Shown piece after piece: positions 1 to 9,326 of a stretch of 64,000 nucleotides of DNA; the stretch's first letter is position 1; each line of letters starts with the position of its first letter. A model generated the notes under the pieces. It did not search any database. It was not told the DNA's origin and saw only the letters and a list, made by a program, of their open reading frames with translations. This stretch comes from a phage. The position numbers were made by a program, and so were the translations under genes. The stretch lies in assembly GCA_037574385.1 (NCBI GenBank), contig GCA_037574385.1_4529.1. One strand, written 5' to 3'.

Positions 1-234
1 ACTAATACGACCATTGGTACCTCTGTTTCTAAATGTCCTGACAATACACCGATAAAAATTTGATCAGTGTGCTCAGGGTCACGAAAGTTTTTAAGAGGTT
101 CCATAGCAATATGGAATGCACCTGGGAATACTCGATTCAATTCGTCAATCACAGCTTCGTTAAAAACATCATCTGCCGGGATAACATCTTCAACTACTAG
201 TTCTTGACCATTAAAGCGAAGCATAGATTTCATA
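1..234 (-). CDS. Hypothetical protein, 5' part only (continues beyond window start)
   Basis: ATG near 234 preceded by SD GAGGAAA and an early-promoter module; open frame runs to position 1 (MKSMLRFNGQELVVEDVIPADD...). Not in ORF track because no stop in window. Confidence 0.5.
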
Positions 235-262
235 ACGTTTTCCTCATGTTGTTGATGGGATG

Positions 263-292
263 ATAGTATCACACATCCATGTGTTTGTAAAC
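263..292 (-). promoter_or_regulatory. Early promoter module (PeSL-like): -35 GTTTAC, 18-nt spacer, -10 TACTAT
   Basis: - strand reads GTTTACAAACACATGGATGTGTGATACTATCATCCCATCAACAACATGAGGAAAACGTTATG. Confidence 0.55.
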
Positions 293-2379
293 TATCCTTG
301 GACAAATTTAAACGGAACCGATTCCAAATCCATTAAAGATGCTAACAGTTTCAATCCTTTAGGTGCACTGTTTATTTCTACGAATGAGGCAAAAGATACC
401 GGCTCATCTGATTCGATTTCACCCGTCATAGCAACCACCTCGCCTGTTTCCATGAGAACATCACCGTCGTAAATGACTGCTTCATCCAACTGGTCAGAGG
501 ACATGACTTCGGCTTGAATAAATTTAAGGTTGGATTCTAAACCTGCACCAGTGTCAGATGACGCATCTGTAATTTTATTTATCTGCAAGAGAATGCCTCT
601 AGGCAAAATAATTTCTTGCTCATTAGGGTGATTACTCAACTGTCCTGGATAAATCACGTTAACTTTATGAGCACCATCAATAGCCCATCCAACGTTAACA
701 CGGATTTGTTCTGGTGCATGCATAGCTGTTCTTACTTGACTAGGAGAAATAGTAACACCTTCGTCATTATTGTCAATGTTAAGCTCTTTGCGAACTTCTT
801 CAGGAGCAAGTCCAAGGGCAACGTTTTCTTTAAACCCGCCAAAAATAATAGGAGCTAATGAAGTAGAAACATAGTTTCTGAAGTAGAATACCTTATTTTT
901 AACCATTGCTTCATAAATAGGCATTCTGATAGACTGAGCTCTATACAACGTTAGTCCTTCAGGTAAACGGTCTCCGTTTAAAAACGCTGAATCAAGACCA
1001 TCAATAGCGCGTTTAACTTCATCTTCATCTGCAACATCGTAAAAATCTGGTTTATAACGTCCTAACAACATATTATTGATATCGGTATACGCAGAAGAGG
1101 CATATTCACGAATAGCTCGTTTTTCAGCAACAGAGTATTGTTTAGGGTCCCGATTCATTGTTATATTAAAGGTGCCTCTAGCCGATTCTCGTGCATAAGT
1201 ATACATCACATTAGACAAGAACGCTGATTTACGTTGTTTCCAAGTTTTTTCAGATACTTCAGCTAAAACGTCGTCAGCCAGTTGGAAATTATCTCGTCTA
1301 AAATCTTCAAACCATTCGTCTTTAATAGAGTCTGCAATTTCGTTTGCAGCTTCAACAAAAGCAGCTAATGCTTTAACAGATGTTGTTTTTTCGGTTTTAA
1401 TTTTCTTAGCAAACTTTTCTAAAGTTGGCTTAATAACACTACCATAAGAAACTTCATCAGCAAATCTAAAGGATTCATCAATACGATTATAAATCTTATT
1501 TTCGATATCAGCAACTAAAGTGCCTTTTGCTGTGGATGATGCTTGGGCTAGTACGATTTCATATGCTTCAGGAAGTAATTCGGCTGTAGCTGGGCCACTA
1601 ACTTCTTTAGCAGAATTTTCGTATTTCTGGAATAACTCACCTTCTTGGCGGTCAGCTTCTAAAGATTGGCTTGCTGCAATAGCACGACGAGAAATTTTAG
1701 TATGAGCAATAACAGGCTTATCTTTACGTTTTTCTTCTACAGCAGCAATAGAACCAGCGATAGCAGTTTCTTTGGTGACCGTTTCGCCGGTCTTTTTACT
1801 CACATAAACTTCGCCAACATCAGAATCTACTTTCGTGTACAACTCTGTGTTAATGTTAGGGATGCCTTTAATATCTTCAATGTTGGCATTTTTACGAACC
1901 ATCATCACATAGGTGTGTTTACCTGTGAATTGATACATTGCAGACAATACTTTAAAACGACCACCAGTTTTAGTAGAAACTAAACGAGCAAGAAGAGTTT
2001 GAAGCTGCTGACCACGTCCTTTCAATTTCTTGGTAGGGAATCGGAACAGAACTGCATCCATACGAAGAGCTTTAACCTGTTCATATACTGTATTGAAAAT
2101 GGTGTTGATTGCATCAATAGGAGCAGGACCAAGGCCATTTTTCAATTCAGCGAGATTACCCTTTTCAGACAGACTCATAATAACAACATGAGCATATTTA
2201 TCGCCAAGTTTAACTTGTTTTACAGCGTCGCCTTCAGAAAGGTAAGAGAATAAGCGAACTACGATGTTTGTATCGATATCACCAATTTTCCAGACTTGTG
2301 GAACTTTAGCTTTAGGGTTCAAATTGACGACAGGAAGACTGCCTTCAGATTCAAACACTTCATTTAATTGTTCAGACAT
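292..2379 (-). CDS. alt: Alt-like ADP-ribosyltransferase (packaged internal head protein)
   Basis: 695 aa; size and sequence character match T4 Alt (682 aa); lies immediately downstream of DNA ligase as in T4. Confidence 0.8.
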   Translation of the reverse strand: MSEQLNEVFESEGSLPVVNLNPKAKVPQVWKIGDIDTNIVVRLFSYLSEGDAVKQVKLGDKYAHVVIMSLSEKGNLAELKNGLGPAPIDAINTIFNTVYEQVKALRMDAVLFRFPTKKLKGRGQQLQTLLARLVSTKTGGRFKVLSAMYQFTGKHTYVMMVRKNANIEDIKGIPNINTELYTKVDSDVGEVYVSKKTGETVTKETAIAGSIAAVEEKRKDKPVIAHTKISRRAIAASQSLEADRQEGELFQKYENSAKEVSGPATAELLPEAYEIVLAQASSTAKGTLVADIENKIYNRIDESFRFADEVSYGSVIKPTLEKFAKKIKTEKTTSVKALAAFVEAANEIADSIKDEWFEDFRRDNFQLADDVLAEVSEKTWKQRKSAFLSNVMYTYARESARGTFNITMNRDPKQYSVAEKRAIREYASSAYTDINNMLLGRYKPDFYDVADEDEVKRAIDGLDSAFLNGDRLPEGLTLYRAQSIRMPIYEAMVKNKVFYFRNYVSTSLAPIIFGGFKENVALGLAPEEVRKELNIDNNDEGVTISPSQVRTAMHAPEQIRVNVGWAIDGAHKVNVIYPGQLSNHPNEQEIILPRGILLQINKITDASSDTGAGLESNLKFIQAEVMSSDQLDEAVIYDGDVLMETGEVVAMTGEIESDEPVSFASFVEINSAPKGLKLLASLMDLESVPFKFVQG

Positions 2380-2419
2380 AGTGTTTTCCTTTTAGTAATA
2401 ATTTATATTTATGCCAAAA

Positions 2420-2435
2420 AGAGCCCGAAGGCTCT
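2420..2435 (-). terminator. UUCG-tetraloop hairpin (AGAGCC-UUCG-GGCUCU)
   Basis: Perfect 6-bp stem with UUCG loop on the - strand transcript, just after an ORF stop. Confidence 0.5.
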
Positions 2436-2644
2436 TAATCCACAATCGGGAGCAAAGTACGATAAACTTCAAAATTAGGGCCTTTTTCGTACCCATTAAC
2501 GTTATCTACGAAAACCCGATACGAATTTTCATTAGGAAAATCTAATATAATCTGAGAGCAAGAGGTGGAAACATCTCCACCATCCTTCTTAGCTACAATA
2601 ACTGTTTCTAAATAAGCTTTCATTATAAACCTGTCTGGGACCAC
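2435..2644 (-). CDS. Hypothetical small protein
   Basis: 69-aa ORF between ligase and alt; start probably an internal Met (MKAYLE) because the tracked start overlaps the ligase 3' end. Confidence 0.4.
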   Translation of the reverse strand: MVPDRFIMKAYLETVIVAKKDGGDVSTSCSQIILDFPNENSYRVFVDNVNGYEKGPNFEVYRTLLPIVD

Positions 2645-4116
2645 GGTCCAAATACGTCTTCAAACGAATCCGCTTCTGTTTTATCAAAACGGAACCCTTT
2701 AATAATTGGAAGGAAAATACCTACAGTACCTTCACGGCCTTTAGAATGAACCCAACCATTACATTCGCAATCAGCAATACGTCCGATCAATTTACCTTCA
2801 CGAGCTTCGGTCATTAATCGTTCACGGTCTAAATCATGACGCTCGTCTAAAGGAATAAGAACCTTTACACCGTCAACTGTTTTATGAGTTGTATCTTTAA
2901 AACCTGAACCACAATCGGTTGTAATACGACGACAACGTGATACGAGTTCGACACCGCCTAATTTGTTAGGGTCTTTAGAGTGTTCATAGTATCCTACAAC
3001 TTCTAAAGCGATATCAATAACTTCTTTAAATTTAATTAGGTTCTTAGAGCGTTTGTTTTCCCAATATGAATCACGGTTTTTAAGGATAATACCTTCAAGA
3101 CCTTGGTCAACATATTTTTTATAAACCACTTTAGCTTCATCAAGATTACGAACTAACTGGTTTTCGATAGGTTCAATTCGTTTAAAGCCTTCAGCCATAT
3201 TTTCAAGAGCAGCAAAACGAACATCGTATTTCTGACCTTTAATTTTGCCATCAGAATAGACTTCATCTAAAGGAACATAGTCCCAGGCTTGAAGAACCAT
3301 ACCTTCCGCTTCTTTAGGAGAAATAGTCCCTTGAAGAGATTTATTTGCTAAACCATTTGAAGTGCTACGGTCTGCAACTTGTACTTCTTCGGATTCTTCA
3401 TTATCACCAAATAAGAACGACAGGTCATTTCCTGAGCTCACAGCCTTTTTAATATCAAATGAATGATAAACTAATTCACCATCAATTAAAACCCCATTAG
3501 GGTGTCTTTCACGAGCTTCTTTAGTCATTTCCATTAGTTCATCTGCTAATAGGGTAAGACCATGGTATTCGTTACCGGCGCGAGAAAAGAATTGAACACC
3601 ATCATCGCGAACTTCAGCGAAACAACGAGCACCATCTGCTTTTAATTGGGCAAATGCGGGCCATTTAATATTTTTAGTAATCAATTTCTCATCATATGCA
3701 GATGCTAACATCTGTGGTTGCAATTGAATAAGACCAGGCCACACCTTATTCGCGATAGACACTGAAGCACCTACTTCAAGGTCGCGCATCATTACACGAC
3801 GAAGGACTTCTACATCATCAGGTTTACCATCAGCGATATAACCCATGAGCTCTTTAATTGCAGCATTACCAGTGAGTTTACGAGTGGCTAATGTGAACTC
3901 AATAAAATCCAACATGTCATCTAATTCAAGAAGACCATATGCTTGGGACCTTTCACCTGGTCCTGGCCATTTCTTAATATAATACTGGATACCACGTGCA
4001 TATGTTAAACGATACACACGTTCAAGTAATTTGTTGTCCTTATTTTTCTTAAGGATTTCCTGTTTTGTTTTAGTAGAACCGATCGCAGCTATTTGGTTTA
4101 AAATATCTAAAATCAT
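2623..4116 (-). CDS. 30: ATP-dependent DNA ligase
   Basis: 497 aa; adenylation motif KADGAR (KxDG); strong overall resemblance to T4 gp30 (487 aa). Confidence 0.85.
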   Translation of the reverse strand: MILDILNQIAAIGSTKTKQEILKKNKDNKLLERVYRLTYARGIQYYIKKWPGPGERSQAYGLLELDDMLDFIEFTLATRKLTGNAAIKELMGYIADGKPDDVEVLRRVMMRDLEVGASVSIANKVWPGLIQLQPQMLASAYDEKLITKNIKWPAFAQLKADGARCFAEVRDDGVQFFSRAGNEYHGLTLLADELMEMTKEARERHPNGVLIDGELVYHSFDIKKAVSSGNDLSFLFGDNEESEEVQVADRSTSNGLANKSLQGTISPKEAEGMVLQAWDYVPLDEVYSDGKIKGQKYDVRFAALENMAEGFKRIEPIENQLVRNLDEAKVVYKKYVDQGLEGIILKNRDSYWENKRSKNLIKFKEVIDIALEVVGYYEHSKDPNKLGGVELVSRCRRITTDCGSGFKDTTHKTVDGVKVLIPLDERHDLDRERLMTEAREGKLIGRIADCECNGWVHSKGREGTVGIFLPIIKGFRFDKTEADSFEDVFGPWSQTGL

Positions 4117-4382
4117 TTGATGTCCTCGATTTTGGTTACGGTTCTATTATAAGCCACTTCATCTAGAAGCGATTTCAGCGTTTTCTGATAAGTGGTAATC
4201 CGTTTACCGAGTCCTTCAACATAATATTCTGAAATGTAGATAAACCCTTGTTCAACACACTCTTTAAATATTTCTGCGTCTTTTACTGAACGAAACAACG
4301 GCCAGTCTCGAAAGAACATGTTAACGTGACCGTAGTCACGTATGGTATTTTTGCCATCTGTAATATCATGAACTACAAACAT
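4113..4382 (-). CDS. Hypothetical protein
   Basis: 89-aa ORF overlapping ligase start by 4 nt (translational coupling). Confidence 0.5.
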   Translation of the reverse strand: MFVVHDITDGKNTIRDYGHVNMFFRDWPLFRSVKDAEIFKECVEQGFIYISEYYVEGLGKRITTYQKTLKSLLDEVAYNRTVTKIEDIK

Positions 4383-4391
4383 AATTAACCC

Positions 4392-5210
4392 TTAACAATT
4401 TATAGTCCATTTAGACGAATCTAAAGGAAAGTTTTGAATCGTCCACCATGGCTGCATATCGGTTGGTCCTGGGGTTCGCCAGGTATATGGAGTACGTGTT
4501 GTCGAGGGGCCACCAATTTGATTAGGCCATGCACCTGGACTTGTTGCACCAGATTCTTTAAGCAAATCCGCCAATCGTTTTAAAAGGTCTTCACGATCTG
4601 AATCCGAATTATGCTCGGGTGGAACCAAACGAGATTCAATATCATCCCACGTGTGTACACGTTGTGCAGTACGAGGAATATCATCACGTTCACCACGGGC
4701 CAACCAATAAATCGGTACATTAAGAATTTCTGCCGCATGGTCACAATGATGAGCTAAATCGTCAACGTAACAAATTACGTTATATTTTGTTTTAGCTAGT
4801 TCGAATAATTGTTCCTTTGAAGAATCATGACCACACATCATTACTTCAGAGAAAGCGCCTGGGAACAAAGCATTCAAATTAAATTGTCTATTCAATCGAG
4901 CATCAATTGAATCACCTAACGCCGTTACGGCTACAAAATTATAGTCTTCTTTTAGTTTATTGATAACTCGAAGAGCATCCGAATAAGGCGCTAAGTAACG
5001 AATAAAATCAGAGCGATTATATTTTTCTATTAATTGTTTACCAAGGTTATCGTCGGTATTGAATAGTTTACCAGGAGAAATAAATTTTTCGTCCTGAATC
5101 ATTTTTAAAATATGTTCTAATGGAAGATTATATTTTTGGGCAAAATAAGGAAGTCCAGATTGCCAGCTTAAACATACACCATCAATATCAGTCAAAATAG
5201 TAGGCTTCAT
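4392..5210 (-). CDS. HAD-superfamily phosphatase-like protein with Pro/Trp/Thr-rich C-terminal tail
   Basis: 272 aa; HAD motif I ILTDIDGV near N-terminus and a DD motif (ICYVDDLAHH); 4-nt overlap with the downstream NADAR-like gene. Confidence 0.6.
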   Translation of the reverse strand: MKPTILTDIDGVCLSWQSGLPYFAQKYNLPLEHILKMIQDEKFISPGKLFNTDDNLGKQLIEKYNRSDFIRYLAPYSDALRVINKLKEDYNFVAVTALGDSIDARLNRQFNLNALFPGAFSEVMMCGHDSSKEQLFELAKTKYNVICYVDDLAHHCDHAAEILNVPIYWLARGERDDIPRTAQRVHTWDDIESRLVPPEHNSDSDREDLLKRLADLLKESGATSPGAWPNQIGGPSTTRTPYTWRTPGPTDMQPWWTIQNFPLDSSKWTINC

Positions 5211-5674
5211 AAAGAGTCTCTTAATAGGTTTAACACATCAATAAATTCAGCTTCAGTTAGTATTGTATCATCTTTTGTTAGGTGGCTGGCCATGCTATGC
5301 TTCAAAATTTTTCCTTTAGAGGCTTGTAAGGCATCGCGAAACCCCTTGTTTTGGATCGCTGCTTCAAAATATGCATTTGTGTATAATTCTTTCCACGCTT
5401 CAGAGTATCTTGAAAATGGAACTCCTAACCAGAAGAGAGTCCCATAGTCCTGAGCTCTTGCATAAGACCTTCCAGCTTGCTGTGCAGCCAATCCAGACAA
5501 CCCAAATATACGTCTTTGATGTTCAACATTTTTCACCTTACATCCTTGGAGAAATCCTTCAAGACCTCCGAATTGAATACCATCCATGACAAAAGGCCAT
5601 TGGGCGAAATTACTTAATGCACATGACGGCCATTTGAAATTACTTCTTATTTCTAATTCAGACATCTTTAACAC
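5207..5674 (-). CDS. NADAR / YbiA-like (DUF1768) domain protein
   Basis: 155 aa; LSNFAQWPFVMDGIQFGGLEGFLQGCKV aligns with E. coli YbiA FSNFAAWPIKVDGKTWPTSEHYFQAQKF; further matches downstream (RRIFGLSGLAAQQAGR). Confidence 0.65.
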   Translation of the reverse strand: MLKMSELEIRSNFKWPSCALSNFAQWPFVMDGIQFGGLEGFLQGCKVKNVEHQRRIFGLSGLAAQQAGRSYARAQDYGTLFWLGVPFSRYSEAWKELYTNAYFEAAIQNKGFRDALQASKGKILKHSMASHLTKDDTILTEAEFIDVLNLLRDSL

Positions 5675-5864
5675 TTATAATTTCAACATCAGCCCAATGA
5701 CCATAACCAGGTATACGGTCTTCGATAGATAAATTTCCGTCATTTTTAGGCATTTTAATTGACGTAATGTATGGTTCTAAACGGTTTTCTGCATAATATG
5801 GAAAAACGTCTGTTACACGATAAGTAACTTCAATCATTTCCGTACCAAACAATTTCTTAAGCAT
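5658..5864 (-). CDS. Hypothetical protein
   Basis: 68-aa ORF in gene-dense - strand array. Confidence 0.45.
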   Translation of the reverse strand: MLKKLFGTEMIEVTYRVTDVFPYYAENRLEPYITSIKMPKNDGNLSIEDRIPGYGHWADVEIISVKDV

Positions 5865-5868
5865 TTTA

Positions 5869-6156
5869 TTAGAACCTCATCTGAAAGCCATGTGATTTAA
5901 CATTACCGCCGCCAATATCAGAAATGTTAATTTCACTTGCAATCGAAGGATCGATGTCAATTTCACGATTAAGTTTAGTGATAGCTAAAGTATCATGCCC
6001 ATTTACTGTACGAAACTCCAAAGGACATACTACGTTGACATAGTGTTTAATTGACTCGCTAGTAGGTTGCAAATGGGCCGGAAGGTCTTTAGGTGCTTTA
6101 GAGAAAACAACTTCACAAAAGTTTTTGCGGGTATCAAAATAAGTGGTCATAAACAT
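5869..6156 (-). CDS. Hypothetical protein
   Basis: 95-aa ORF; SD GAGGAAA upstream; UUCG hairpin just upstream of its RBS. Confidence 0.5.
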   Translation of the reverse strand: MFMTTYFDTRKNFCEVVFSKAPKDLPAHLQPTSESIKHYVNVVCPLEFRTVNGHDTLAITKLNREIDIDPSIASEINISDIGGGNVKSHGFQMRF

Positions 6157-6173
6157 AATATTTTCCTCAATAG

Positions 6174-6189
6174 GGAGCCGAAGCTCCCA
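6174..6189 (-). terminator. UUCG-tetraloop hairpin (GGGAGC-UUCG-GCUCCC)
   Basis: Perfect 6-bp stem, immediately followed by the SD of the next gene. Confidence 0.5.
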
Positions 6190-6195
6190 GTTAAA

Positions 6196-6561
6196 TTAGA
6201 TATCGAATTCATTAAGAACTACATCAAAGATTGCTTCGAGATGTTCAGGTTTAGCTCGGTTACTCAGGATATGACGAATCCAAGTTTTAACCAAAAGTTT
6301 ACGATTGACACCGTTCCAGCAAGGATGAGTACCTAAATCACGCTGACGGAAATCATCATCTAATGCAATTTTGAAGTTGGAACCTTCCATCGTGATTGAA
6401 ACCGTGATGCCATTTTCAAATCGCATATAAACGTAATTAGGAGTCATGCACTGTTCGATTTCACAAACTGTACCGTTTTTGTGTTTCCATAAGCAAATAA
6501 CTTCAGAAGAACCAGCGATACCGTTAGAAACATATTTACGTTCGAAGTTGATGTAGTTCAT
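6196..6561 (-). CDS. Hypothetical protein
   Basis: 121-aa ORF with own PeSL-type early promoter and SD GGAGAATAAAATG. Confidence 0.55.
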   Translation of the reverse strand: MNYINFERKYVSNGIAGSSEVICLWKHKNGTVCEIEQCMTPNYVYMRFENGITVSITMEGSNFKIALDDDFRQRDLGTHPCWNGVNRKLLVKTWIRHILSNRAKPEHLEAIFDVVLNEFDI

Positions 6562-6602
6562 TTTATTCTCCAGATGTTTAAGTTGTTTGTTGGTACAGGT
6601 CT

Positions 6603-6631
6603 ATAATAACATAACCTGTACCAAAGTAAAC
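6603..6631 (-). promoter_or_regulatory. Early promoter module with 9-bp inverted repeat flanking -10
   Basis: GTTTAC-N17-TATTAT; arms GGTACAGGT / ACCTGTACC on either side of the -10; SD GGAGAATAAAATG downstream. Confidence 0.55.
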
Positions 6632-6635
6632 TGTT

Positions 6636-7004
6636 TTATGCAACTTTAATCCAATTGTCTAAATTTAAAACACCTTTGGCTTTCATTTTTTCGATAAGGT
6701 TATCTGCTGTAATGCGTCCATTTTGATACCATGTAACATCTTCAGAGTAACCAGTTTCTTCGTCAACATATGTTTCTGAACGAATTTTACCGGTAATAAT
6801 AGTTTTTAATTCGTATGTGTCACCTGTGAAAAAGTTTGCTAACACAATTTTCCAAGAGAAATCATTTGAAGGACCTTCAGGGGTCATACAACCTACGATC
6901 TCAAATTGCTCTTTGTATAACATCCATTGGAATTCTTTAATTTCGATAGCTTTATAACCGTCGTGGTCTTTACATTCGATGTATGAGTTCAGATTGATTT
7001 TCAT
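6636..7004 (-). CDS. Hypothetical protein
   Basis: 122-aa ORF with own PeSL-type promoter and SD GGAGAATAAAATG. Confidence 0.55.
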   Translation of the reverse strand: MKINLNSYIECKDHDGYKAIEIKEFQWMLYKEQFEIVGCMTPEGPSNDFSWKIVLANFFTGDTYELKTIITGKIRSETYVDEETGYSEDVTWYQNGRITADNLIEKMKAKGVLNLDNWIKVA

Positions 7005-7045
7005 TTTATTCTCCAGTTTGTTTTATTGATTAGGTGGTACAAGTC

Positions 7046-7075
7046 TATAGTAACACATCCTACAGGAGAGTAAAC
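7046..7075 (-). promoter_or_regulatory. Early promoter module (PeSL-like)
   Basis: GTTTAC-N18-TACTAT followed by AGAC and SD. Confidence 0.5.
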
Positions 7076-7110
7076 ATCTTTTTAAACTTTTTCTGCCCTA
7101 AACACACAAA

Positions 7111-7130
7111 AGGGAGACCGAAGTCTCCCT
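7111..7130 (-). terminator. UUCG-tetraloop hairpin (AGGGAGAC-UUCG-GUCUCCCU)
   Basis: Perfect 8-bp stem after the small basic protein gene. Confidence 0.5.
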
Positions 7131-7134
7131 AAAA

Positions 7135-7311
7135 TTATGCAACAACCTTTCCAAAACGAGAAGCATCATCTCGAAGAACTGCACGTGCTCTGCGCATGAT
7201 CTTCTCAACTGTTTGATTAATACGAGAGTTCGACCCACGCTTGTATCCAGCGCGTTTAGAATCACCGACTTTCTTTTCAACTGCTTTCTTTGCTTTAGTT
7301 TGTTTTGCCAT
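7135..7311 (-). CDS. Small lysine/arginine-rich basic protein (58 aa)
   Basis: Hand-called: MAKQTKAKKAVEKKVGDSKRAGYKRGSNSRINQTVEKIMRRARAVLRDDASRFGKVVA; followed by UUCG hairpin. Preferred over overlapping track ORFs 7098..7280(-) and 7213..7398(+). Confidence 0.5.
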   Translation of the reverse strand: MAKQTKAKKAVEKKVGDSKRAGYKRGSNSRINQTVEKIMRRARAVLRDDASRFGKVVA

Positions 7312-7683
7312 TATAAATTCTCTTTAAATGAAAATGCAGGACTTATTGACATTGCCTGCTCAAGCCCTCAAGGGGAACATAGGTTTTTGGATATTTAACG
7401 ACCAGGATAACCATAAACCCGTCATCATACCTTATAGCTCTTATCTGTTGCACACCGTTAGCTTAAAGGTTCCGGGTTCGATTTCTCGAGGATAAGATAT
7501 ATACTGATGGATATATAGGCCTTGAGGCGTACTCCCGATTAGCCATCACCTCGGGGTAGCATGCACTTACCGCTATAAGAACAACATTCAAGAGGTACAC
7601 CGTAAAATTGTCGGGGCGGTACTTCTAAAACATACCGATTCGCAAATCGATAATCAGACAATTCGACGGCTCCTCGATTTAAC

Positions 7684-7932
7684 TTACTTCAGGGTAATAA
7701 CAAAATGACGAACTGCTTTACGAGCTGCTGAAGCCAGAGGCTTAGCATATTTCAATTCATCTTTCTGAGCCAGGATATCACGAAGATCGGCCTGTGCTGG
7801 ATTCAGATGTTTGAAATATCGCAGGATTTCCAGTGCTTCGGCTTCAACATCAATTGACGCGCCGTAGTTTTCGTGGCCATTATTCCATGCATGGCGTTGC
7901 AGTTCAAGAGCGTGTTGTAATTGTTTAATCAT
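7684..7932 (-). CDS. rIII: rIII lysis-inhibition accessory protein
   Basis: 82 aa, same length as T4 rIII; adjacent to gene 31 as in T4. Confidence 0.7.
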   Translation of the reverse strand: MIKQLQHALELQRHAWNNGHENYGASIDVEAEALEILRYFKHLNPAQADLRDILAQKDELKYAKPLASAARKAVRHFVITLK

Positions 7933-8048
7933 TTTAAATTCTCAATTCGAGATAATATTTAGTAGCCACGTTCGTCTGAATTTCACCTTCTTTCGACAGG
8001 TCTCTCAGTTGTAGGCTACCGCTTAGAAGAGTGTTCTCTTCATATAGT

Positions 8049-8056
8049 TATTTATA
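8049..8056 (-). promoter_or_regulatory. Candidate late promoter (TATAAATA) upstream of rIII
   Basis: Exact TATAAATA on - strand, but about 115 nt from the rIII start. Confidence 0.3.
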
Positions 8057-8389
8057 TCACTTATAAAGACACGGAATAGCTTTATAGTGGCATGTTACGA
8101 ATTTCTGTTTAATTTCTTTAGGTTGTTTAAGACCTAAAGCCACAAATGGATGTGGAACATTTCGAATTTGTCCAACTGGTAGTGGAGTCAAATCACCGAC
8201 TTCAACAAAACCTTCAGGAACATCAGGACCTACAGAATGAACTACACATAGTTCAGGAACTTCACCTTGAACACGTTTACCAATCACAAGTCCTGATTCG
8301 GTAACTTCTTCATCACCTGCTTGAGCGGGTTCAGAAACCAGAATGACATATTCACCAACAGCACGAATTGGGAGTTGTACTTCAGACAT
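8057..8389 (-). CDS. 31: Gp31 co-chaperonin (GroES analogue) for capsid protein folding
   Basis: 110 aa; near-identical in character to T4 gp31 ([33 protein letters not shown]). Confidence 0.85.
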
Positions 8390-8399
8390 CTTATTTCCT

Positions 8400-8435
8400 T
8401 GTTGTTTGACGATAGATTAATAATACCATACTATT
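8400..8435 (-). promoter_or_regulatory. Candidate MotA-dependent middle promoter for gene 31
   Basis: - strand ATATGCTTTACAAATAGTATGGTATTAT: MotA-box-like TGCTTTA about 11 nt upstream of -10 TATTAT. Confidence 0.4.
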
Positions 8436-8446
8436 TGTAAAGCATA

Positions 8447-8743
8447 TTACATAAGAAGCAAACGTTCCACCGGAGTACCATCAACCGAAATTACTTTATC
8501 AAGGCGGAAAGAACGCCACTGACCTAACTTGGTATCGAATGCTCGAACTGATTCACGAGGTTCATAACGAACTTCTGTTGCCGGATTGTTATTTTCGTAT
8601 TTGACTTCAAGTTCGTCGCGCGAAGCAAACATCGTACGAACATCACCGTTAGCCTTTTCAAATACAACACAATGAACGCCTACAGACAGAATAGTTTTAA
8701 TACGTTCACGAAGAACCATAGTTTCTTGTTCAGTTAAAATCAT
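8447..8743 (-). CDS. Hypothetical protein
   Basis: Tracked ORF 8447..8755 starts with GTG; likely true start is ATG at about 8743 (MILTEQET), 2 nt after the cd stop. Confidence 0.45.
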   Translation of the reverse strand: MILTEQETMVLRERIKTILSVGVHCVVFEKANGDVRTMFASRDELEVKYENNNPATEVRYEPRESVRAFDTKLGQWRSFRLDKVISVDGTPVERLLLM

Positions 8744-8744
8744 A

Positions 8745-9326
8745 TTATTCACCACAAAAGTTTCGGATTTGTTCCCAATTCAGAGAACGAAGATTATTAC
8801 GAGAGTACTGAATTACTTCAATACCAGCTTGTTTTAGAATATCTGCCCAATTTTCAGGAGATCTGTCATATAATTCTGCGTATACAACCTTTTTAATACC
8901 TGACTGCGTAATAGCTTTAGTGCAATCAGGACACGGAGAAAGCGTCGTATATAACGTAGCACCTTCAATAGAATTACCTTTACGAGCGGCAAACAAAATT
9001 GCATTCAATTCTGCGTGGATTTCATTATTAGCAGACCATGCACTATGAGCAGCTCGATGTTCTTTAGCTAAAACAAAATTATCTACCCGTCCAAATGCTG
9101 TAGTGCCTTCTTTATGACCAGCAATGATGACAGGACTCGGCTTGTTCTTCAACCAACCTTGTTCAGTAGCATGGTCACAACAGTTTATACCACCTGCCGG
9201 GCTACCGTTATACCCAGTAGAAATGATACGTCCATCTTTTTCAATGACGGCACCTACTTTCCATGAACAACATTTTGATTCTTGAGAAATCAGATATGCA
9301 ATCTGAAGGTATGTGCTAGCTTTCAT
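8745..9326 (-). CDS. cd: dCMP deaminase
   Basis: 193 aa (T4 Cd 193 aa); zinc-binding motifs HAELNAI and SPCPDC. Confidence 0.85.
   Translation of the reverse strand: MKASTYLQIAYLISQESKCCSWKVGAVIEKDGRIISTGYNGSPAGGINCCDHATEQGWLKNKPSPVIIAGHKEGTTAFGRVDNFVLAKEHRAAHSAWSANNEIHAELNAILFAARKGNSIEGATLYTTLSPCPDCTKAITQSGIKKVVYAELYDRSPENWADILKQAGIEVIQYSRNNLRSLNWEQIRNFCGE

What the first reader, a model, noticed from the sequence alone, without database searches (positions are those of the whole stretch)
4392..5674. Translationally coupled HAD phosphatase and NADAR/YbiA-like gene pair near alt
A HAD-type phosphatase and a 155-aa NADAR (DUF1768) protein overlap by 4 nt. NADAR enzymes are N-glycosidases; family members hydrolyse ADP-ribose-guanine adducts made by DarT-type toxins, and YbiA cleaves ribosylamino-uracil intermediates. 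In a phage that itself encodes ADP-ribosyltransferases (alt, mod) this pair could act as an anti-defence (reversal of DNA ADP-ribosylation) or nucleotide-salvage module.
Basis: partly seen in the sequence, partly recalled or inferred. Interest (0 to 1): 0.7.

Follow-up and report, generated by a model that had tools for sequence, protein, structure and literature searches.

The report
Known anti-DarT gene adfN plus phosphatase
The two overlapping genes are phage T4 genes 30.3 and 30.2: 30.3 is the already published anti-defence enzyme AdfN, which strips ADP-ribose off phage DNA, and 30.2 is an uncharacterised phosphatase that T4 transposon data show is not needed for that job.

Summary
On the minus strand, a 272-aa HAD-fold gene (4392-5210) and a NADAR-fold gene (5207-5665) share an ATGA overlap. 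They lie about 2.8 kb from alt, in an RB69-like T-even phage. The NADAR start is most likely the ATG at 5665 (152 aa), not the GTG at 5674.

The NADAR gene is T4 gene 30.3, published as adfN. [quoted passage not shown] The window protein is 95% identical to T4 AdfN and keeps E36, K43 and H123. It also lacks the single-T insertion that inactivates the RB69 allele.

The "module" idea is not supported. In a T4 transposon library challenged with DarTG1, insertions in 30.3 are lost (log2FC -7.25) while insertions in 30.2 are neutral (-0.12, p = 0.61). Only 37 of 78 related loci keep adfN within 4 kb of 30.2, and in some phages the genes lie 50-64 kb apart. Four-nucleotide overlaps are the commonest gene junction in this region.

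gp30.2 is a complete C1-capped HAD phosphatase. Its closest relatives are 5'(3')-deoxyribonucleotidases (the NT5C family). Its substrate is unknown.

The parts
5207..5665 (-). adfN (T4 gene 30.3): 152-aa NADAR-superfamily DNA ADP-ribosylglycohydrolase, intact allele
5666..5674 (-).
   Evidence: T4 annotation and the published construct start at the ATG. The mechanical ORF list starts at the GTG.
5558..5560 (-). Codon for catalytic Glu36 of AdfN
   Evidence: GAA, read. Invariant in alignment A2. T4 E36A abolishes function. Aligns with the Glu of YbiA's SEHYFQAQK.
5537..5539 (-). Codon for catalytic Lys43 of AdfN
   Evidence: AAG, read. Conserved in T4. T4 K43A abolishes function.
5297..5299 (-). 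Codon for His123, the residue that marks the phage gp30.3 clade of NADARs
   Evidence: CAT, read. Invariant in A2. PMC11125620 states that phage NADARs carry His where YbiA has Glu and DarT1-linked NADARs have Asp.
5255..5256 (-). Site where RB69 carries an extra T (nt 411 of the gene) that truncates its AdfN; the window lacks it
   Evidence: Alignment A1 column 447. RB69's annotated 30.3 ends 43 nt before 30.2. The frameshift is described in PMC11257639.
5207..5210 (-). ATGA overlap: stop codon of adfN and start codon of 30.2
   Evidence: Read. The same junction is present in T4.
4392..5210 (-). Gene 30.2: 272-aa HAD-superfamily phosphatase with a C1 cap (core aa 1-200) and a disordered variable tail
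5175..5189 (-). HAD motif I, D8-I-D10-G-V (nucleophile and acid/base aspartates)
   Evidence: D8 and D10 are invariant in 34 sequences and lie at the end of strand 1 of the model.
4758..4763 (-). HAD motif IV, D150-D151. Motif II (T96, codon 4923-4925) and motif III (K132, codon 4815-4817) lie between motifs I and IV.
   Evidence: Conservation in A3 and positions relative to the strands of the model.
4392..4540 (-). Pro/Trp/Gly-rich, low-confidence C-terminal tail of gp30.2 (about aa 224-272), hypervariable among orthologues
   Evidence: pLDDT below 55. Unalignable tails in A3. Only 64-80% nt identity to RB69 here, against 95-100% elsewhere.
5658..5864 (-). Gene 30.4 (68 aa), immediately upstream; its stop overlaps the adfN start by 8 nt (ATGTCTGA, 5658-5665)
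   Evidence: phrog_2042. T4 30.4 insertions are partly depleted on DarTG1 (log2FC -1.79, adj. p 0.014), consistent with polarity or coupling onto adfN.

Best explanation
The window comes from an RB69-like T-even phage (Mosigvirus), and the two genes are T4 genes 30.3 and 30.2.

Gene 30.3 is adfN. It is expressed early in infection, and its 152-aa NADAR-fold product hydrolyses the N-glycosidic bond between ADP-ribose and guanine that the host DarT1 toxin places on phage DNA. This restores replication in DarTG1-carrying hosts. The catalytic residues E36 and K43, and the clade-specific H123, are present. Unlike RB69, this phage has the intact reading frame with the C-terminal helix, so I predict it resists DarTG1. 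That prediction is an inference.

Gene 30.2 is a separate enzyme: a Mg-dependent, aspartyl-phosphate-forming HAD phosphatase with a C1 cap. Its closest relatives are NT5C-type 5'(3')-(deoxy)nucleotidases, so it most probably dephosphorylates a small nucleotide-like phosphomonoester. The fold and motifs are shown here; the substrate is inferred.

The ATGA overlap reflects the compact gene packing of this T-even early region, not a two-enzyme pathway.
For: Identity and synteny:
- 95.6% nt identity to RB69 and 99% to Shigella phage ESh27; gene order is alt, alt.1, 30, 30.1, 30.2, 30.3, 30.4.

AdfN:
- PF08010 at 1.7e-68.
- 145/152 residues identical to T4 gp30.3.
- hhalign against YbiA: probability 88%, E 2.8e-6. 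YbiA's second-best Pfam hit is PF08010.
- E36, K43 and H123 are conserved.
- The RB69 frameshift is absent.
- Published genetics and biochemistry of the T4 orthologue.
- Independent transposon screen: T4 30.3 log2FC -7.25, adj. p 0, on DarTG1.

gp30.2:
- Confident AF2 core.
- Motifs D8/D10, T96, K132 and D150-D151 are conserved.
- 1078 representative clusters in the family, of which 27 of 139 sampled match Pfam NT5C (best 4.2e-10) and P0258 passes the curated cut-off.
- Viral structural neighbours are annotated as 5' nucleotidases.

Independence of the two genes:
- T4 30.2 insertions on DarTG1: log2FC -0.12, p 0.61; only two genes were significant in that screen.
- adfN lies within 4 kb of 30.2 in only 37 of 78 loci.
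- adfN is about 64 kb away in Aeromonas phage 44RR2.8t and about 50-58 kb away in EcS1 and PEi20.
- Overlapping junctions are the norm in this region.
Against: - No experiment was done on this phage. The activity of this allele is inferred from 95% identity to T4 AdfN.
- The Pfam NADAR model itself does not hit the protein.
- AdfN works fully only during Tevenvirinae infection, and the authors leave open a second phage factor. The T4 transposon data argue against 30.2 being that factor, but only for one DarTG1 system, one host and one medium, and they cannot exclude redundancy.
Confidence: 0.78

Rival explanations
1. The pair is a two-step anti-DarT module. AdfN releases ADP-ribose (or leaves a phosphoribosyl remnant), and the translationally coupled HAD phosphatase processes that product. 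In this reading gp30.2 is the unidentified 'additional factor' that makes AdfN efficient only in T-even infections.
For: - ATGA overlap, present in T4 as well.
- The two genes directly abut in 19 of the 37 loci that keep both within 4 kb.
- Both genes are near-universal in Straboviridae: 1511 and 1445 phage records, with matching host genera.
- The AdfN authors note that another phage factor could be needed.
- Aravind's group reports phosphatases coupled to ADP-ribose-removing domains in other systems.
Against: - T4 transposon insertions across 71 TA sites of 30.2 are neutral on DarTG1 (log2FC -0.12, p 0.61), while 30.3 insertions are lost. Only 2 genes were significant.
- adfN sits tens of kb from 30.2 in Aeromonas, Edwardsiella and EcS1-type phages.
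- 41 of 78 loci have 30.2 with no adfN within 4 kb.
- Purified AdfN alone de-ADP-ribosylates DNA in vitro.
- Overlaps of this kind also join unrelated genes such as ligase/30.1 and pseT/ORF230c.
Confidence: 0.07
2. gp30.2 works with DNA ligase (gene 30) rather than with AdfN, for example as a DNA-end 3'-phosphatase or a phosphatase acting on a ligation by-product.
For: - 30.2 lies directly upstream of the ligase gene, within 1.6 kb, with or without 30.1 between them, in 74 of 78 loci. This holds even where the 30.3-30.9 region is rearranged.
- One distant phage type shows the same arrangement: its 30.2-like protein is 25% identical and its ligase 22% identical (L076/L077).
Against: - The model has a roughly 75-residue helical C1 cap inserted after motif I. 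From general knowledge of HAD enzymes, a C1 cap usually restricts the site to small substrates, whereas DNA-end phosphatases are capless.
- The top fold and family links are to NT5C nucleotidases.
- T-even phages already encode PseT.
- Gene order is strongly conserved in T4-like phages, so adjacency alone is weak evidence.
- Other distant relatives have no ligase nearby.
Confidence: 0.1
3. gp30.3 here acts mainly as a metabolic or small-molecule N-glycosidase (YbiA-like riboflavin-intermediate damage control, or hydrolysis of soluble ADP-ribose signalling molecules) rather than on DNA.
For: [quoted passage not shown]
- T4 gp30.3 did not rescue DarT1 toxicity in uninfected cells.
Against: - Direct genetics: adfN is necessary and sufficient against DarTG1 in T-even phages, and the E36A and K43A mutants are dead.
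- It removes ADPr from DarT1-modified DNA and from guanosine-ADPr oligonucleotides in vitro.
- Insertions are lost specifically on DarTG1 and are neutral otherwise.
- The phage clade carries His where YbiA carries Glu.
Confidence: 0.04

Closest known systems
AdfN (anti-DarT factor NADAR; T4 gp30.3), Johannesman, Carlson & LeRoux 2024, PMC11257639
   Same: Orthologue. It is 95% identical over all 152 residues, has the same flanking genes and overlaps, the same catalytic E36 and K43, and the same C-terminal helix sequence.
   Different: It comes from an RB69-type (Mosigvirus) genome. The type phage RB69 carries a frameshifted, non-functional allele; here the frame is intact. There are seven substitutions relative to T4. 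This allele has not been tested.
DarG1 / DarT1-associated NADAR antitoxins (BC4488 family; Geobacter lovleyi NADAR, PDB 8bat)
   Different: AdfN has no N-terminal extension. It has His rather than Asp in the last strand. It has no adjacent DarT toxin gene. It does not replace DarG1 in uninfected cells.
E. coli YbiA (N-glycosidase; Pfam NADAR PF08719; PDB 2b3w)
   Different: The window protein fails the PF08719 model. It has His in place of the YbiA-family Glu. Its biological role differs.
NT5C family 5'(3')-deoxyribonucleotidases (Pfam PF06941; human cdN 6g2n, mdN 2jao; S. epidermidis 3bwv)
   Different: gp30.2 itself does not reach any curated threshold. It is only 13-19% identical to solved structures. 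It carries an extra roughly 70-residue helix-plus-disordered tail. No activity data exist.

Membership tests
NADAR superfamily (gp30.3/AdfN clade) | YbiA/NADAR alpha+beta fold | tested here: met
NADAR superfamily (gp30.3/AdfN clade) | Match to the Pfam NADAR/DUF1768 model PF08719 | tested here: not met
   No hit at E <= 0.1 for the window protein, and none at E <= 1 for three other gp30.3 family members. The sibling model PF08010 hits at 1.7e-68. The link to NADAR comes from hhalign against YbiA (probability 88%, E 2.8e-6) and from YbiA's weak hit to PF08010 (E 0.004).
NADAR superfamily (gp30.3/AdfN clade) | Catalytic Glu and Lys of the ...E..xQ..K motif (T4 E36, K43) | tested here: met
   E36 is invariant in A2. 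K43 is present and identical to T4. Both align with the YbiA motif.
NADAR superfamily (gp30.3/AdfN clade) | His in the last strand (clade marker, replacing Glu or Asp) | tested here: met
   H123 is invariant in A2 and lies in strand 120-123 of the model. The criterion is taken from PMC11125620.
NADAR superfamily (gp30.3/AdfN clade) | Intact C-terminal helix (lost in the inactive RB69 allele) | tested here: met
   No extra T at nt 411. Helix 138-151 is present in the model. The C-terminus is identical to T4.
NADAR superfamily (gp30.3/AdfN clade) | Hydrolysis of guanine-ADP-ribose on DNA; protection from DarTG1 | not testable with these tools
   Shown for T4 AdfN. Inferred here from 95% identity.
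HAD superfamily phosphatases | Rossmannoid HAD core fold | tested here: met
HAD superfamily phosphatases | Four catalytic motifs: DxD, T/S, K, DD | tested here: met
   D8 and D10 are invariant, T96 is at least 90% conserved, K132 is invariant, and D150/D151 are at least 90% conserved in 34 sequences. Each sits at the canonical strand end in the model. D8, D10 and K132 persist across 139 distant relatives.
HAD superfamily phosphatases | Curated Pfam or NCBIfam HAD model above threshold | tested here: not met
   HAD_2 scores 15.5 bits against a cut-off of 23.8. There is no NCBIfam hit.
NT5C 5'(3')-deoxyribonucleotidase family (PF06941) | Match to PF06941 above the gathering score | tested here: not met
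   The window protein has no hit. Among relatives retrieved with its profile, 27 of 139 hit at E <= 1e-3, and P0258 passes (36.8 bits against 24.8). gp30.2 is therefore a neighbouring clade, not a demonstrated member.
NT5C 5'(3')-deoxyribonucleotidase family (PF06941) | Structural similarity, including the C1 cap | tested here: inconclusive
NT5C 5'(3')-deoxyribonucleotidase family (PF06941) | dNMP phosphatase activity | not testable with these tools
   No literature on gp30.2 was found.

The most novel reading that the evidence does not exclude
gp30.2 is not a housekeeping nucleotidase. Instead it is a conserved accessory of the phage DNA ligase, or a counter-defence enzyme that destroys a nucleotide-monophosphate danger signal or toxic nucleotide produced during host-DNA breakdown. 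That would explain why it is kept next to gene 30 in nearly all T4-like phages yet is dispensable on laboratory K-12. A weaker variant is that 30.4, not 30.2, is the accessory factor that makes AdfN efficient in T-even infections.
Probability: 0.1. Interest if true: 0.6.

Novelty: already known. Interest (0 to 1): 0.22.

Why it matters
This validates that kind of sequence reasoning but adds no new biology.
- This RB69-type phage carries an intact adfN, so unlike RB69 it should plate on DarTG1 hosts. That is relevant to host-range prediction and to using RB69-like phages as DarTG1 reporters.
- gp30.2 remains one of the widely conserved T4-like genes with no known substrate. It occurs in about 1,400 phage records and over 1,000 sequence clusters. 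Here it is narrowed to a complete, NT5C-like, capped HAD phosphatase that is genetically separable from AdfN, which makes it a defined target for a substrate screen.

Tried and rejected
1. A direct Pfam NADAR hit for gp30.3: none; only PF08010.
2. phmmer of either protein against PDB sequences: only sub-threshold hints (YbiA E 0.99; mdN E 0.8). The gp30.2 profile against PDB sequences gave nothing meaningful.
3. NCBIfam gave no family for either protein.
4. Fusion partners of gp30.2 relatives (430-660 aa proteins P0119, P0161, P0174, P0222) had no second Pfam domain.
5. Gene neighbourhoods of distant gp30.2 relatives outside T4-like phages (L071, L075-L078, L083-L087) showed no recurrent partner: no NADAR, and ligase in only one lineage.
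6. Literature searches for gp30.2 found nothing. A 2026 preprint on an m6-dAMP-sensing defence system does not implicate 30.2.
7. Promoter and terminator scans gave no more sites than shuffled sequence. Rfam found nothing in 1-9000.
8. The afdb50 fold library was unavailable; the viral library was used instead.
9. I considered that the GTG at 5674 is the true start. I rejected this because T4 and the published construct use the ATG.

Full report
**What is in the sequence**

The window is a T-even-type phage. The stretch 4000-6200 is 99.0% identical to Shigella phage ESh27 and 95.6% identical to RB69 (genus Mosigvirus). RB69's annotation gives the gene order alt, alt.1, 30 (DNA ligase), 30.1, 30.2, 30.3, 30.4, 30.6, all on one strand.

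In the window these genes are on the minus strand:

| Gene | Coordinates |
|---|---|
| alt | 292..2379 |
| ligase (30) | 2623..4116 |
| 30.1 | 4113..4382 |
| 30.2 | 4392..5210 |
| 30.3 | 5207..5674 (as listed mechanically) |
| 30.4 | 5658..5864 |

Two details need correcting. The likely 30.3 start is the ATG at 5665, giving 152 aa, as in T4 (459 nt) and in the published expression construct. That ATG overlaps the 30.4 stop by 8 nt (ATGTCTGA).

**The NADAR gene**

- The protein does not match Pfam NADAR (PF08719). It matches the phage-specific family PF08010 at 1.7e-68.
- A profile of the family aligns to YbiA with hhalign probability 88% and E 2.8e-6. YbiA's second-best Pfam hit is PF08010.
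- The literature settles the function. T4 gp30.3 was named AdfN. It is necessary and sufficient for T-even phages to overcome DarTG1. It removes ADP-ribose from DarT1-modified DNA. It is inactivated by E36A or K43A (PMC11257639).
- An independent study showed hydrolysis of guanosine-ADPr but not thymidine-ADPr, and noted that phage gp30.3 NADARs carry a His where other NADARs have Glu or Asp (PMC11125620).
- The window protein is 145/152 identical to T4 AdfN and keeps E36, K43 and H123.

**An intact allele in an RB69-type genome**

RB69 is DarTG1-sensitive because an extra T at nt 411 truncates AdfN. The window-versus-RB69 alignment shows that this T is absent here (column 447 of A1; window 5255/5256). 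That restores the C-terminal helix and the ATGA junction. In RB69 the annotated 30.3 ends 43 nt before 30.2. I therefore predict that this phage is DarTG1-resistant; this is an inference.

**The HAD gene**

- Pfam gives only a sub-threshold HAD_2 hit (E 0.02), and NCBIfam gives nothing.
- A 34-sequence alignment shows motif I (D8-x-D10-G-V), motif II (T96), motif III (K132) and motif IV (D150-D151) invariant or nearly so.
- The AlphaFold model is confident for residues 1-190 (pLDDT above 90). It places each motif at its canonical strand end, with a helical C1 cap (about residues 16-86) inserted after motif I.
- An exhaustive profile search finds 1078 representative clusters, mostly proteins of about 200 aa. 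Of 139 of these scanned against Pfam, 27 match NT5C (PF06941), 13 match generic Hydrolase and 9 match HAD_2. One passes the NT5C gathering score.
- Viral structural neighbours beyond the orthologues are annotated as 5' nucleotidases.
- The last 50 or so residues are Pro/Trp/Gly-rich, low-confidence and hypervariable.

So gp30.2 is a complete, capped HAD phosphatase nearest to the NT5C nucleotidases. Its substrate is unknown, and no paper mentions it.

**Is the pair a module?**

Three lines of evidence say no.

1. Genetics. In the HIDEN-SEQ T4 transposon library (bioRxiv 10.1101/2025.11.20.689424), sheet Data S6 'Control_vs_DarTG1' lists two significant genes. Gene 30.3 has log2FC -7.25 (adj. 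p 0) and 30.4 has -1.79 (adj. p 0.014). Gene 30.2, with 71 TA sites, has -0.12 (p 0.61). Gene 30.2 is also non-essential on K-12, with 72 of 72 sites hit.
2. Linkage.
   - Among 78 IMG/VR loci encoding a 30.2 homologue, only 37 have an adfN homologue within 4 kb. Nineteen abut directly, three lie within about 150 nt, and fifteen lie 0.4-1.7 kb away.
   - Both genes are nonetheless widespread: 1511 and 1445 phage records, with matching genus counts.
   - adfN simply sits elsewhere in some lineages. In Aeromonas phage 44RR2.8t it lies in the tRNA cluster next to vs.6, about 64 kb from 30.2. In EcS1 and PEi20 the two genes are about 50-58 kb apart.
3. The overlap. In T4's homologous stretch, 13 of 24 same-strand junctions overlap and 7 of those are 4-nt overlaps. 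In RB69, 12 of 29 overlap, including junctions between unrelated genes.

The more conserved neighbour of 30.2 is the DNA ligase gene, which lies within 1.6 kb downstream in 74 of 78 loci. That could reflect T4-like synteny or a functional tie. The C1 cap argues for a small-molecule substrate, and distant relatives show no recurrent ligase or NADAR neighbour.

**Verdict**

The anti-DarT reading of the NADAR gene is right, but it was published in 2024 and independently confirmed. The HAD gene is a separate, still uncharacterised, probably nucleotidase-like phosphatase. The only specifics new to this window are the intact adfN allele in an RB69-type background and the narrowed description of gp30.2. 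Interest is low.

Noticed in passing
window 5658-5864 (-), gene 30.4: In the T4 transposon screen on DarTG1, 30.4 is the only significant gene besides adfN (log2FC -1.79, adj. p 0.014). Its stop overlaps the adfN start by 8 nt. This could be polarity or translational coupling onto adfN, or 30.4 could be an accessory factor. BLAST homologues of 30.4 accompany adfN only in the Tequatrovirus/Mosigvirus-type loci.
   Followed up: partly
window 5302-5529 (-), frame of T4 '30.3'': T4 annotates an internal out-of-frame ORF 30.3' inside 30.3. The same frame in the window has a stop after 34 codons (against the open 75 codons in T4). The ORF is therefore not conserved and is probably not a real gene.
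   Followed up: yes
window 5062-5660 versus flanks 4400-5060 and 5661-5860: Nucleotide identity to T4 is 87-95% across adfN and the first ~150 nt of 30.2, but 37-75% in the rest of 30.2, 30.1, ligase and 30.4. At protein level AdfN is 95% identical to T4 and gp30.2 is 69%. This is a mosaic island, suggesting recent exchange or unusually strong constraint. It also explains why the RB69 x T4 crosses recombined within 30.3.
   Followed up: partly
window 4392-4540 (-), C-terminal tail of gp30.2: The tail is Pro/Trp/Gly-rich, predicted disordered, and differs in length and sequence among orthologues (total lengths 196-347 aa). It diverges even from RB69 (64-80% nt identity). It is possibly a protein-interaction tail.
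   Followed up: no
L003-L079 (IMG/VR loci), and window 2623-5210: 30.2 sits directly upstream of the DNA ligase gene in 74 of 78 loci, whether or not 30.1 or adfN is present. This includes one distant phage type (L076/L077) whose 30.2-like protein is 25% identical.
   Followed up: partly
L080 (Aeromonas phage 44RR2.8t) 3501-3950: In this T4-like phage adfN lies inside the tRNA gene cluster, between vs.6 and tRNA-Arg, about 64 kb from 30.2. This shows that adfN has moved around the genome.
   Followed up: partly
P0004-P0006, P0010, P0012, P0015, P0019; locus L012 3636-4004: Several database entries and one IMG/VR genome carry shortened gp30.3 products (86-126 aa, 80-94% identical over the aligned part). 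Truncated adfN alleles like RB69's may therefore recur, unless these are annotation fragments.
   Followed up: no
window 7111-7130 (-): A strong terminator-like hairpin (8-bp stem, 5 GC pairs, followed by a T-rich tail) lies just downstream of 30.9. It could mark the end of a transcription unit upstream of the 30.8-30 cluster.
   Followed up: no
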